A stretch of DNA of 17,767 nucleotides from a virus (lineage: Duplodnaviria > Heunggongvirae > Uroviricota > Caudoviricetes). The stretch is taken from the IMG/VR virus record IMGVR_UViG_3300039320_000013; one strand, 5' to 3'. A program made the position numbers. Of this stretch, positions 3,001-6,000 are shown piece after piece (the first letter of the stretch is position 1; every line of letters begins with the position of its first letter).

Positions 3001-6000
3001 CCATTGCCTTCAGATCTTTACGGGCCACCCCCATCCCCGCAGCAAGCGCGCGGATCACCCGGTCGCCATTTTCGTTAACAGCATTAAATTCTTCGCCACG
3101 CAGTACACCCTGTGCCAGTGCCTGGCTGAACTGGGTGATCACCGAACCGGATTCCGCAACTCCAGCCCCTGACAGTTTCAGTCCTGTCGAAATGGCCTCC
3201 GTCACCTTCAGCACATCATCAGCACTGTAACCATATTCACGCATCGAGGCAGCCGAACGGGCAAACAGGGCCGCATTATCCGAAAACGCGGTACCTGTCC
3301 GCTGACTGATATCCATCAGCACTTTCTGTGATGACGAAAATTCATCGGATGACTGCGACGCCTGTTTCAGACGGGCATTTACGGAACTCCACTCATCCGC
3401 CAGTGAAATCAGGTGTCCGGTGGCAAAGGCACCGGCAAATGCGCCAGCCACTCCGACAGCAGAACCGCGAATTTCCGTCAACTGGCTGTTCAGCTCAGCC
3501 AGGGCGCGTCGCTGCTCCCGGGCGACTGCGGCAGCCTGACGCCCGCCATTCTACAGGGTCCGGTAATATTCACTGCCCATGCGGGAAGCCCGCTGGATCT
3601 CCGACTGGAATGACTGCGAATTTGCCGAAATTTTGATAATCAGTTCACGTAACGTCGCCATTCACCTTTCTCCGGACGAAAAAAAACCGCCTCAGCGGTT
3701 CTCATCATTTATGACTGTGCAGCAAGGCTCAGCGCGTCTTCCAGTCCCGCAAAAGGATCCGCTTCCGGCTTGTCCTCATCCTCGCCCCAGCAGAGCATGG
3801 CGTCCTTCAGTGAAACATTCATCCCCTGCGCCCCGAAAACCGCTTTCACGATCTGCGCATTACGGATATCCCCGCGCTCATCGCCCAGCGGGGACACCCT
3901 GTCGAACTCCATCCACATCATCGCCTCGCTCGCACTCAGACTGTGGCGCAGTTCGGATAAGGTGCGCCCCAGACGGAGCGCAAGTCGCATCAGAAAGCGA
4001 ATTTCCGGGCGGGCTACTTTTTTCTTGCCGACTCAGCATCGGTGATCAGTTCCAGTGCCTGACGCAGCAACCGGGCATGCACCGGACCATAGACAGCCAG
4101 CACCTGCTCGCGATCATCTGCGGTGAACACACGTTTCATGTCCTTATCACACAGAACATCACAGAACAACGTCACATCCGCCTCCAGGTTACGGCGGGTT
4201 TTTGCCACCACCGACAGGGTATCGTCACCCGCATCATCGCCATTAAGAACTTCCCGCCAAAGATACCAGGCCTCTGCCGAAGGCTCGCGCAGCACCACGC
4301 TGACATTCCCCCATTCCGGCACCTTCACCGTTTTATGACGAAATCCGGACAGTCTGGCCAGCGCCAGTGTTTTCAGATCTTTTGCCATCGGATTATCCTT
4401 ATCAACCTGCGCCATTTACCGTTACCGTGCACGCGTCAGAGGTAATTCTCTGCGGCTGTTCTGCAGAATCCGTTACCATGCAGGTATAAGCCCCCTTATC
4501 ACCTGACTGCGTATTGGCTTTACTGAAAGTGTCAGTAGTCTGTCCCTCGACCGGCTGACCATCCTTCTTCCAGGCGTATTTATAAGGCGGCGTTCCCCCG
4601 TTGACACTGACTGACATTGTCAGCAGCGCACCGGTATTCACGGTAAGCTTCGCCTCCGGCTTTTTAACAAACGCCAGCGGTACCACATAGGACACCGTTT
4701 TGCCTTTCAGACGCAGTGAAAACGTTGCTGCCACCACGCCGTTGGTACCGGATGACCAGGTGTGCTGACGCACTTCCGCCAGGAACTTAAAGCCCTTACC
4801 GGACGGAAACTGCACCTTAAACGCATACAACGAGTCATTGTCATAGGCATCACGCAGGGCGTTCTGGGCCTGATTCAGATAAAAATTACCCGACATGGAA
4901 ATCTCAGACGACGCCCCCAGACCGTTGATGTTCTCCTGCTCTGTGGAGCAGAGCGTGGTCACATCAATATCCTGTTTCTGACCGGCGGTGAACTGGACTT
5001 CCTTGATGGTGCAGTCCAGGCGCAGATATTCCGCCTTATCCATAGTTTCAGCAGTCGCCGGGGCAGATGAAATCATCACCTGCGTCAGCTGTGAGCGTTC
5101 ATACAAAGCAGACATTCTGCCTCCTGATAATAAAAAACCCGCACGCGGCGGGGTATGGGTTTTGTAGAAAAAAAGAAAAAGTCACACCGTGACCTGAAAC
5201 TCCAGGGTTGCACGGTAACAGCGGTTTTCCGGAATATAGTCCTGCATTTCACTGACCGATTCCGGGGCCAGCGACATGATGGACTCACGGGCCTGCTGAC
5301 GTATCTGACGCGCCTGTGTGACCGTCACCGCATAAACGTCAATCTGCACCGACACCGATGACTCTGCCTGTCCGCCCATCACGTCCGCAGACACCGATGA
5401 AATCAGGCTGAAAACCACCCACGGTAACGATACAGAGGGTCTGCCATCCTGCAGGGGAACCACATACGGATACGCCTGCCCTCCCGCAAGATGCGCCAGA
5501 TGTGGGTACAAATCCGTCTCCGTCATCGTCTCAGTACCTCATCAATTGCCCGGTTCATCCGCGCAATCGCCACCCGGGCTGCCTGTTCACTGCGCACATC
5601 AAACGCCGGGCGCACAAACGGGTGTGGTGGCATATTCACGGTACCCATTTCCACAAACCGCCAGTAGAAGGCATTGCGGGGATTATCCGCCTTCATGGTG
5701 TTATCACTGTTGCCGGTGTCCGGATTAACACCACGGATATGCACACCGGATTCCATCCCGCCATCGCGGGAACGCCGGGAAAGAACCACCACATTGCGGC
5801 GCAGTTTTCCCCTGCGCACCGGTGCCCGTGACACCACTTCGTTCTTCAGTACATTCGCCCCCGCACGGGTTGCCTCACGCAACACCCGGTTGTTTTCCGC
5901 ACCACTCAGAAGCTGCAAATCGCGACTGATATCCTCAAGCCCCGAAAAATCCAGCAGGGTTTCGATCATTTTTCCCCTCCCAGCCGACAGAGAATTTCCA

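What the first reader, a model, noticed from the sequence alone, without database searches (positions are those of the whole stretch)
3551..3661. In-frame TAG 36 codons into the tape measure gene
The minus-strand frame starting at ATG 3661 (good SD) is continuous with the 1028-codon tape measure ORF except for one TAG at 3553-3551. The ORF-track start at 3481 is just an internal TTG Leu codon of that frame. The plus-strand CTA differs from CTG (CAG, Gln, on the coding strand) by one transition. So either the prophage has a nonsense-inactivated or N-terminally truncated tape measure protein, or this is a sequencing error. The intact protein would be about 1088 aa, implying a tail somewhat longer than lambda's (gpH 853 aa).
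Basis: seen in the sequence. Interest (0 to 1): 0.5.

Follow-up and report, generated by a model that had tools for sequence, protein, structure and literature searches.

The report
Nonsense-mutated tape measure in decaying prophage
A real, inherited single-base stop-codon mutation (CAG to TAG) cuts off the tail-length gene of a lambda-like prophage in one E. coli lineage, and it is one of several knock-out lesions in the same prophage, so this is ordinary prophage decay rather than a sequencing error or a new mechanism.

Summary
On the minus strand, ATG 3661 opens a frame that runs to the stop at 395 and is interrupted only by TAG at 3553-3551 (codon 37). Relatives annotate the tape measure gene from exactly this ATG and read CAG (Gln) there. 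The C allele occurs at 2,859 places in 1,215 complete E. coli genomes; the T allele occurs in none. It is not a sequencing error: the same TAG was verified in 14 independent public records (isolates KTE24, CP049609.1, two NCTC strains, MDES01, and gut metagenomes). Carriers form one near-identical clade, so the mutation arose once and is inherited. The same prophage carries further lesions. In the window these are an 11-bp frameshifting deletion in the terminase-associated HNH endonuclease gene (about 14050) and an IS1 inserted in the lysis cassette (17537-17767). Sub-lineages add an ISL3 insertion and a TerL frameshift. Rescue looks unlikely: no suppressor tRNA was found, TAG is a normal stop elsewhere in the window, and TTG 3481 has a worse Shine-Dalgarno match than an average position in the ORF. 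Verdict: a null allele in a decaying cryptic lambdoid prophage. Ordinary, low interest.

The parts
3551..3661 (-). N-terminal 36 codons of the tape measure gene (native ATG 3661-3659) ending at the premature amber codon
   Evidence: Homolog CDS starts map to 3661. This 36-aa product is on record as a called gene on 45 contigs.
3551..3553 (-). Premature TAG (codon 37), derived from CAG (Gln) by a C->T transition (G->A on the + strand at 3553)
   Evidence: Alignment. T allele 0 places against C allele 2,859 places in complete E. coli genomes. Gln37 is conserved even in a 69%-identical tape measure protein.
395..3550 (-). Remainder of the tape measure reading frame (codons 38-1088 plus stop). It holds all three Pfam tape-measure domains and is now untranslated, or translated only by rare restart or readthrough
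   Evidence: Pfam TMP_3 1.2e-56, Phage_HK97_TLTM 8.9e-75, Tape_meas_lam_C 7.1e-18.
3479..3481 (-). TTG = Leu61 of the intact protein. This is the mechanical ORF start and not a plausible initiation site
   Evidence: the same TTG lies inside intact homologs. Anti-SD duplex -1.9 kcal/mol against -6.6 for the native start and -3.9 ORF background.
3670..3673 (-). Shine-Dalgarno GGAG of the native tape measure start, 8 nt upstream of the ATG
   Evidence: Duplex energy -6.6 kcal/mol. Invariant in relatives.
3709..4415 (-). Tail assembly chaperone pair G (4014-4415) and T (3709-3990, in the -1 frame), with slippery heptamer A AAA AAG at 4023-4017. This is the conserved context that identifies the downstream gene as the tape measure gene
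   Evidence: Pfam Phage_TAC_1 2.5e-58 and Phage_tail_T 1.9e-19. Sequence and frame read directly.
61..402 (-). gpM-like minor tail protein gene, overlapping the tape measure stop. Intact
   Evidence: Pfam Phage_min_tail 1.1e-28.
13798..14152 (-). HNH endonuclease gene next to the small terminase, inactivated by an 11-bp deletion (GTTTCCCTCAA missing between 14051 and 14050). The frame shifts after codon 34, leaving the HNH domain out of frame in a 90-aa ORF
   Evidence: No complete E. coli genome spans the deletion junction. Linked with the TAG in every record where both sites are visible.
17537..17767 (-). Right end of an IS1 element (transposase C-terminus and terminal repeat GGAGTCATTACC), inserted about 18 nt into the DUF1327 gene between holin and endolysin, at the head of the late operon
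   Evidence: Pfam DDE_Tnp_IS1 1e-36. Junction compared with uninterrupted relatives. The full IS1 is seen at the same site in CP049609.1 (L115).

Best explanation
The TAG is a genuine, heritable amber nonsense mutation (CAG Gln37 -> TAG) in the tape measure gene of a lambdoid prophage. It arose once and has been passed on within one E. coli lineage. In an ordinary non-suppressing host, translation from the native start ends after 36 residues, so no tape measure protein is made. Because tail-tube polymerisation is built on the tape measure protein, this prophage's own genes cannot build tails. The mutation is one step in the stepwise decay of a cryptic prophage. All carriers examined also have an 11-bp frameshifting deletion in the terminase-associated HNH endonuclease gene. 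Sub-lineages then acquired an IS1 in the lysis cassette (present in this window), an ISL3 element beside dinI, and a TerL homopolymer frameshift. Shown here: the mutation, its single origin, its presence in many independent assemblies, its linkage with the other lesions, and the absence of suppressor tRNA or recoding in the region examined. Inferred: loss of tail production and vertical rather than phage-mediated spread.
For: Ancestral state and true start. All homologs start at the equivalent of 3661 and read CAG. C allele 2,859 places in 1,215 genomes against T allele 0. 68 IMG/VR loci carry C and none carry T. No phage record carries T. Real and inherited: the T allele was verified at DNA level in 14 records, namely KE136710.1 (KTE24), CP049609.1, UGAB01, UFZP01, MDES01, OIEU01000531.1, JGI 3300039377, five ENA metagenome assemblies, ERZ918630/ERR525758 and Logan SRR7133522. 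The 36-aa product is on 45 contigs. Single origin: carriers share T109 and G633 against the nearest CAG relative and differ from one another by at most 6 SNPs in 13.5 kb, apart from copy number of a 162-bp repeat. Decay: HNH 11-bp deletion, private to this lineage and always linked to the TAG; IS1 in DUF1327; ISL3 beside dinI in three of four carriers with context; TerL A8->A9 frameshift in three carriers. UFZP01 has TAG and the HNH deletion but neither later IS, giving a nested order. No rescue evident: no tRNA in the window; only CAT and TCG anticodon tRNAs in carriers' prophage regions; TAG is the normal stop of gene G and of the 161-aa gene, and no other gene has an internal stop; TTG-61 has an anti-SD duplex of -1.9 against the native -6.6 kcal/mol. 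Literature: the TP901-1 tape measure protein needs its N-terminal 154 aa, and deleting residues 31-61 abolishes infectivity (PMC5099701); HK97 gp74 HNH promotes cos cleavage by TerL (PMC9410871); lambdoid E. coli prophages commonly carry multiple defects (PMC2669165).
Against: No reads or experiments were available, so loss of tails is inferred and not shown. All other virion genes in the window (about 20) are intact, so the decay is recent. Of the four tape measure substitutions that certainly post-date the TAG, three are synonymous; this is too few to distinguish relaxed from purifying selection (about P=0.07 by my own binomial estimate). The tape measure protein is needed in only a few copies per tail (a trimer in lambda, PMC10721106), so very low readthrough or restart could in principle yield rare tails. 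Host backgrounds and the integration site of carriers could not be read, so vertical inheritance rests on the nested shared lesions. Co-resident lambdoid prophages, such as L101 in UFZP01 with an intact 1075-aa tape measure gene, could supply tails in trans or repair the allele by recombination.
Confidence: 0.85

Rival explanations
1. Sequencing or assembly error: the true sequence is CAG and the gene is intact.
For: None of 5,426 complete RefSeq E. coli genomes, GTDB representatives, IMG/VR contigs or phage records carries the T. On that evidence alone it could look like a private error.
Against: The identical T is present in 14 independent records from Illumina isolate drafts, PacBio NCTC assemblies, a complete genome and several unrelated metagenome studies. 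These records differ from one another at other sites and in IS content, so they are not copies of one erroneous sequence.
Confidence: 0.01
2. The gene still yields a working protein in cis. Either ribosomes that terminate at UAG reinitiate at TTG 3481 to give a 1028-aa N-terminally truncated tape measure protein, or near-cognate tRNA-Gln occasionally reads UAG. Since only about three copies are needed per tail, some tails are still made.
For: All three Pfam tape-measure domains lie downstream of residue 83 and are kept in the 1028-aa ORF. The TTG is only 67 nt past the stop. The lambda tape measure protein is a trimer (PMC10721106). Three of four post-TAG substitutions are synonymous. From my own knowledge, lacI amber mutants restart at internal AUG, GUG and UUG codons.
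Against: TTG-61 has an anti-SD duplex of -1.9 kcal/mol, worse than the ORF average of -3.9 and far below the native -6.6, and no better in-frame start exists before codon 140. Residues 1-60 are conserved in a tape measure protein only 69% identical overall. In TP901-1 the N-terminal 154 aa are required and deleting 31-61 abolishes infectivity (PMC5099701). The prophage also has HNH and IS1 lesions, so a trickle of tape measure protein would not restore a viable phage.
Confidence: 0.05
3. The TAG is decoded as glutamine, either by a host or phage amber-suppressor tRNA (supE-like) or because the phage uses a TAG-to-Gln recoded genetic code as some gut phages do.
For: The ancestral codon is Gln, the residue a supE-type suppressor or TAG-to-Gln recoding would insert. 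From my own knowledge, natural amber-suppressing coliforms have been reported and TAG-recoded phages are common in gut metagenomes.
Against: There is no tRNA in the window, and carriers' prophage regions hold only CAT and TCG anticodon tRNAs. TAG terminates gene G and the 161-aa gene normally, and there is exactly one in-frame TAG across 23 ORFs and gene fragments. The stop is absent from all 2,859 homologous copies, so it is not a conserved feature. Carriers' chromosomal tRNA-Gln genes could not be inspected.
Confidence: 0.02
4. The allele is null in cis, but the element is still mobilised through interactions between prophages. Co-resident lambdoid prophages supply tails, HNH and other functions in trans, or repair the lesions by homologous recombination, as shown for defective O157 Sakai prophages.
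For: UFZP01 carries a second lambdoid prophage with identical gpM, 99.6% L, 98% J and an intact 1075-aa tape measure gene. E. coli genomes hold up to 7 copies of this tape measure family. Defective Sakai prophages are released as particles and some transfer (PMC2669165).
Against: Tube, chaperone and tape measure proteins of the co-resident prophage are only 65-70% identical. Three or more independent lesions would each need complementing. All TAG carriers are near-identical and share nested IS markers, as expected for vertical descent. No T allele occurs in any virome or phage collection searched.
Confidence: 0.1

Closest known systems
Bacteriophage lambda gpH (tape measure protein) and classical H amber mutants
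   Same: The gene has the same position and context as lambda H: G and G-T chaperones with a -1 slippery site upstream, M-L-K-I-J downstream, and a Tape_meas_lam_C domain. An amber codon early in the gene is expected to abolish tail assembly in a non-suppressing host.
   Different: The protein is 1088 aa rather than 853 aa and carries HK97-type TLTM and TMP_3 domains. The amber is a natural allele fixed in a wild E. coli lineage, not a laboratory conditional-lethal mutant kept on a suppressor host.
Defective lambdoid prophage pool of E. coli O157 Sakai (Asadulghani et al. 2009, PMC2669165)
   Same: These are the same family of lambdoid prophages; Stx1/Stx2c phages are 95% identical across the start of this gene. 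Both show multiple independent defects, including IS insertions, in morphogenesis, packaging and lysis genes of otherwise complete-looking prophages, and both occur with co-resident related prophages.
   Different: This prophage is in non-O157 strains (relatives sit next to btsS) and no stx gene was seen in the regions read. Its activity has not been tested.
Cryptic prophages of E. coli K-12 (Rac, DLP12, Qin, e14)
   Same: Vertically inherited lambdoid remnants that have lost virion production through mutation, IS insertion and deletion.
   Different: The K-12 remnants are far more eroded, with most structural genes deleted. Here nearly all late genes are still intact, so this is an early stage of decay.
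HK97 gp74-type HNH endonuclease next to terminase (Kala et al. 2014, cited in PMC9410871)
   Same: A small HNH protein is encoded just upstream of TerS/TerL in a cos-type HK97-like head module. In HK97 it stimulates cos cleavage by TerL.
   Different: Here the gene is frameshifted by an 11-bp deletion. This is a second lesion, relevant to whether the tape measure mutation matters at all.
TAG-to-Gln stop-codon-recoded gut phages
   Same: An in-frame TAG sits where relatives have Gln, in a late structural gene of a phage found in gut metagenomes.
   Different: There is only one such TAG, no suppressor tRNA, TAG is used as a true terminator in neighbouring genes, and the stop is absent from all homologs. 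It is not a member.

Membership tests
Phage tail tape measure protein gene (lambda gpH / HK97 TLTM type) | Sequence matches to tape-measure domain families above the curated cut-offs | tested here: met
   Phage_HK97_TLTM 252 bits (cut-off 24), TMP_3 192 bits (41), Tape_meas_lam_C 65 bits (23).
Phage tail tape measure protein gene (lambda gpH / HK97 TLTM type) | Located directly downstream of the tail chaperone pair G and G-T with a -1 slippery sequence, and upstream of the tail-tip genes | tested here: met
   (Phage_TAC_1, Phage_tail_T, Phage_min_tail). A AAA AAG at 4023-4017 with T in the -1 frame. L, K, I and J lie downstream in carriers.
Phage tail tape measure protein gene (lambda gpH / HK97 TLTM type) | Uninterrupted reading frame from the conserved start to the stop | tested here: not met
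   TAG at codon 37, where all homologs have CAG. It is a pseudogene of this family, not a functional member.
Phage tail tape measure protein gene (lambda gpH / HK97 TLTM type) | Protein length sets tail length (about 1.5 angstrom per residue) | not testable with these tools
   Needs electron microscopy of particles from an intact relative. 1088 aa against 853 aa for lambda predicts a somewhat longer tail (inference).
Defective (cryptic) lambdoid prophage | Lambdoid late-operon gene order, integrated in a bacterial chromosome | tested here: met
   Q, lysis, HNH, TerS, TerL, capsid, portal, connectors, tail and J in megabase-size E. coli chromosomal records. Relatives lie next to btsS.
Defective (cryptic) lambdoid prophage | Inactivating lesions in genes essential for virion production | tested here: met
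   Tape measure amber, HNH 11-bp frameshift, IS1 in the late operon. In sub-lineages, TerL frameshift and ISL3.
Defective (cryptic) lambdoid prophage | Failure to produce infectious particles on induction | not testable with these tools
   Needs induction experiments on a carrier strain such as KTE24 or the NCTC isolates.
Stop-codon-recoded phage (TAG read as Gln) | Many in-frame TAG codons across late genes, with TAG avoided as a terminator | tested here: not met
   one in-frame TAG in 23 ORFs and gene fragments; TAG terminates gene G and the 161-aa gene.
Stop-codon-recoded phage (TAG read as Gln) | Phage-encoded suppressor tRNA with a CUA anticodon | tested here: not met
   no tRNA in the window; only CAT and TCG anticodons in about 40 kb of carriers' prophage sequence.
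Programmed stop-codon readthrough | The stop codon is conserved at the same position among homologs | tested here: not met
   0 of 2,859 chromosomal copies and 0 of 68 IMG/VR copies carry it. It is confined to one near-clonal lineage.

The most novel reading that the evidence does not exclude
The amber allele is not fully null. Rare Gln misreading of UAG, or reinitiation at TTG-61, would supply the few tape measure copies needed per tail. Alternatively, the lineage keeps the otherwise intact head and tail gene set because co-resident prophages complement it. Either way the element would persist as a conditionally mobilisable prophage rather than a dead one.
Probability: 0.04. Interest if true: 0.35.

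Novelty: already known. Interest (0 to 1): 0.12.

Why it matters
The main value is practical. This prophage looks almost complete and would probably be scored as intact by gene-content-based prophage predictors. A single-base nonsense mutation, an 11-bp deletion and an IS1 show it is very probably unable to make its own virions. The nested lesions (TAG plus HNH deletion, then IS1, ISL3 and the TerL frameshift) give a dated-order example of early prophage decay and a convenient marker for one E. coli lineage that recurs in human gut metagenomes. It does not reveal a new mechanism.

Tried and rejected
1. Sequencing error. Rejected after the exact 36-aa and 1028-aa products were found in many independent assemblies and the T was verified in their DNA.

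2. 'A private mutation of this one sequence', suggested by null searches in RefSeq complete genomes, GTDB representatives, IMG/VR and phage records. Rejected for the same reason. Those collections simply lack this lineage: CP049609.1 is not in the RefSeq set.

3. Two distinct haplotype groups among carriers, suggested by 27 apparent mismatches. This was an alignment artefact of a 162-bp tandem repeat that varies in copy number.

4. Loss of gene K in CP049609.1, because no gene was on record. The ORF is intact.

5. One index hit (L084) is a contig that merely ends at codon 36 of a 95%-identical relative. It is not a TAG carrier.

6. Suppressor tRNA or recoding. Rejected.

7. Restart at TTG 3481 or another in-frame start with a Shine-Dalgarno sequence. 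None exists.

8. Identifying the host lineage and attachment site of carriers. The 10-kb flanks stop just short of the chromosome and a literature search on the strain names gave nothing useful.

9. Testing selection after the TAG. Only four or five substitutions are available, too few.

10. The hairpin plus T-run upstream of the start (3679-3700). It is no more stable than shuffled sequence (z = -1.5) and was not flagged by the terminator scan.

11. Kala et al. 2014 (PMC4000778) could not be read. The role of the HNH protein is cited through PMC9410871.
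Full report
**Observation**

ATG at 3661-3659 sits 8 nt downstream of GGAG. It opens a frame of 1089 codons whose only internal stop is TAG at 3553-3551 (codon 37). The mechanical ORF list starts the 1028-aa ORF at TTG 3481, which is codon 61 of that frame.

Pfam places the gene in the tape measure family: TMP_3, Phage_HK97_TLTM and Tape_meas_lam_C, all far above the cut-offs. Its neighbours are the tail chaperones G and T upstream and gpM downstream. G ends in the slippery heptamer A AAA AAG (4023-4017) and T lies in the -1 frame, the conserved G/G-T arrangement that precedes tape measure genes (sequence).

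**Ancestral state**

A 400-nt query around the site matches 1,245 of 5,426 complete E. coli genomes. The 13 best match at 99.8%, one mismatch, and none match at 100%. Four related records (E. coli CE10, AR_0013, 07_3636 and Stx1a phage Stx1_14040) annotate the tape measure CDS from the exact equivalent of 3661, and the intact protein is 1088 aa. In the alignment, the single difference from CE10 and AR_0013 is C->T at the first base of codon 37, CAG (Gln) to TAG.

I then used a 55-mer centred on that base, so that every 28-nt megablast seed has to include it.
- The T version finds nothing in the complete genomes.
- The C version finds 2,859 places in 1,215 genomes.
- The T allele is also absent from GTDB species representatives, IMG/VR (against 68 loci with C) and phage records.

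Gln37 is conserved even in a tape measure protein only 69% identical overall.

**Not a sequencing error**

One metagenome contig (OIEU01000531.1) carries the T. Exact-product look-ups were more informative:
- The 36-residue N-terminal fragment is indexed in 116 blocks of the assembly collection, and the 1028-residue remainder in 38.
- The 36-aa product occurs on 45 contigs, with names such as 'hypothetical protein WEG_01727 [Escherichia coli KTE24]'. The 1028-aa product occurs on 15, including 'Shigella sp. FC2928'.

I verified the T in the DNA of 14 distinct records: KTE24 scaffold KE136710.1, complete genome CP049609.1, NCTC assemblies UGAB01 and UFZP01, MDES01, OIEU01, a JGI metagenome, several ENA gut-metagenome assemblies and a Logan assembly. 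These come from different laboratories and platforms and differ from one another elsewhere, so the allele is real. CP049609.1 is not in the RefSeq collection searched, which explains the earlier null result.

**One origin, inherited**

Over the 3,267-nt gene, all carriers share T109 and the synonymous G633 relative to the nearest CAG sequence (L008). Sub-groups have since acquired 294 (synonymous), 635 (V212G), 1746 (synonymous; present in the window) and 2059 (synonymous). Over 13.5 kb, carriers differ from the window by 0-6 SNPs. The one exception is copy number of a 162-bp repeat, which at first looked like 27 mismatches. The window is identical to a JGI contig over 13,661 nt and to an infant-gut contig from ERR525758 over 7,415 nt.

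**The prophage carries other lesions**

Comparing the whole window with CAG relatives showed two more defects inside the window.

1. **HNH endonuclease gene.** An 11-bp deletion (GTTTCCCTCAA, between 14051 and 14050) lies in the HNH endonuclease gene just upstream of the small terminase. The frame shifts after codon 34, leaving the HNH domain in a separate 90-aa ORF. No complete E. coli genome spans this deletion junction: 0 of 1,577 places cover 80% or more of the query.

2. **IS1 insertion.** The last 231 nt of the window (17537-17767) are the right end of an IS1 (DDE_Tnp_IS1, 1e-36; terminal repeat GGAGTCATTACC). It is inserted about 18 nt into the DUF1327 gene that follows the holin. The complete IS1 is seen at this site in CP049609.1.

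Wherever both sites can be seen, the HNH deletion and the TAG occur together: the window, KTE24, CP049609.1, UFZP01, two metagenome scaffolds and a Logan contig. No locus combines CAG with the deletion, or TAG with the intact HNH gene.

Further markers are nested within the clade:
- UFZP01 has the TAG and the HNH deletion, but has an intact DUF1327 gene and an uninterrupted dinI flank.
- KTE24, CP049609.1 and UGAB01 have an ISL3 transposase beside dinI.
- Three carriers also have a TerL A8->A9 frameshift.

This is the pattern of a prophage copy accumulating lesions while being inherited. A relative in CE10 shows another route to the same end: its tape measure gene is cut at nt 885 by a deletion reaching btsS.

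**Could the gene still work?**

- **Suppressor tRNA:** none was found in the window or in about 40 kb of carriers' prophage sequence.
- **Recoding:** TAG terminates gene G and the 161-aa gene normally, and no other gene has an in-frame stop.
- **Restart:** the anti-Shine-Dalgarno duplex is -6.6 kcal/mol for the native start. It is -1.9 for TTG-61 and no better than -2.4 for any other in-frame start up to codon 140. The mean over positions in the ORF is -3.9.
- **The missing residues:** they are conserved. In the lactococcal phage TP901-1, the N-terminal 154 residues of the tape measure protein are required and deleting residues 31-61 abolishes infectivity (PMC5099701). This is an analogy, not a test.

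A caveat is that few copies are needed per tail; the lambda protein is a trimer (PMC10721106), so rare readthrough cannot be excluded. Even so, the HNH protein promotes cos cleavage by TerL in HK97 (PMC9410871) and is frameshifted here, and an IS1 interrupts the late operon. Restoring a trickle of tape measure protein would not restore a phage.

Trans-complementation or recombinational repair by co-resident lambdoid prophages remains possible. UFZP01 holds a second prophage with identical gpM, 99.6% L and 98% J, but only 65-70% identical tube, chaperone and tape measure proteins. Such interactions are documented for defective O157 prophages (PMC2669165).

**Comparison with what is known, and verdict**

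The gene is a pseudogenised member of the lambda gpH / HK97 tape measure family: the domain and synteny criteria are met and the intact-frame criterion is not. The element fits the well-known class of defective lambdoid E. coli prophages with multiple lesions. It is not a stop-codon-recoded phage and not a programmed readthrough site; each defining feature was tested and not met.

Nothing here departs from known biology. Interest is low (0.12). The value of the result is mainly in annotation and as a lineage marker.

**Limits**

No reads or wet-lab data were available. The host phylogeny and attachment site of carriers could not be reached with 10-kb flanks. Too few substitutions post-date the TAG to test for relaxed selection.

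Noticed in passing
window 13798-14152 (deletion between 14051 and 14050): The HNH endonuclease gene next to the small terminase has an 11-bp deletion (GTTTCCCTCAA) that shifts the frame after codon 34. It is private to the TAG lineage and always linked with the TAG.
   Followed up: yes
window 17537-17767: The window ends inside an IS1 element (transposase C-terminus and terminal inverted repeat). It is inserted about 18 nt into the DUF1327 gene between holin and endolysin. It is present in CP049609.1 and absent in TAG carrier UFZP01.
   Followed up: yes
window 4017-4023 (genes G 4014-4415 and T 3709-3990): The tail chaperone pair has a canonical -1 slippery heptamer A AAA AAG immediately before the G stop codon, with T in the -1 frame. 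This is the conserved G/G-T programmed frameshift. The lambda site recalled from memory is G GGA AAG.
   Followed up: partly
window 7117-7487, inside the 353-aa ORF 6651-7712: A 162-bp (54-aa) tandem repeat, 2.3 copies at 86% identity, lies in the gene after portal, which has no significant Pfam match. Copy number varies among otherwise near-identical prophages, giving products of 299, 353 or 407 aa.
   Followed up: partly
window about 7724-7728 (G-run) and 7709-7712 (ATGA overlap): The portal (454 aa) and the following ORF are separate here and overlap at ATGA, with a G5 run 11 nt upstream. 12 of 67 related loci have G6 instead, which fuses the two into one ORF of about 861 aa. PGAP labels the split state 'frameshifted portal'. 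The two states belong to distinct sequence haplotypes, so both may be functional. Whether a frameshift at the G-run is used was not examined.
   Followed up: partly
window 3679-3700, minus strand: A 6-bp GC-rich hairpin followed by T8 (AACCGCTGAGGCGGTTTTTTTT) lies between gene T and the tape measure Shine-Dalgarno sequence and is invariant in relatives. It looks like a terminator, but its stability is not unusual (MFE -13.5 kcal/mol, z = -1.5) and the consensus terminator scan did not flag it.
   Followed up: partly
L095, L097, L100 at about 20260-20342 (KTE24, CP049609.1, UGAB01): An ISL3-family transposase is inserted directly beside the dinI-like gene at the prophage's right end in three TAG carriers. 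It is absent in TAG carrier UFZP01 (L102) and in CAG relatives, so it is a nested marker within the clade.
   Followed up: partly
L082, L119, L123 (TerL, nt 275 of the gene): A subset of TAG carriers has an extra A in an A8 run of the large terminase gene, splitting it into 141- and 418-aa ORFs. Seen in three independent assemblies, so probably real further decay.
   Followed up: partly
L001 4090-4974 (E. coli CE10): In CE10, a 99.5%-identical relative of this tape measure gene is truncated after 885 nt by a deletion that removes the rest of the prophage up to btsS. This is a different route of decay in the same prophage family.
   Followed up: no
L101 (second prophage in NCTC assembly UFZP01000004.1): The same genome that carries the TAG prophage holds another lambdoid prophage with identical gpM, 99.6% L, 98% J and an intact 1075-aa tape measure gene. 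Its tube, chaperone and tape measure proteins are only 65-70% identical. It is a possible partner for recombination or trans-complementation.
   Followed up: partly
L084 10001-10108 (JAHVTD010000038.1): An exact-product look-up can return false carriers. This contig merely ends at codon 36 of a 95%-identical relative, so its 36-aa 'product' is a contig-end artefact and not the TAG allele.
   Followed up: yes
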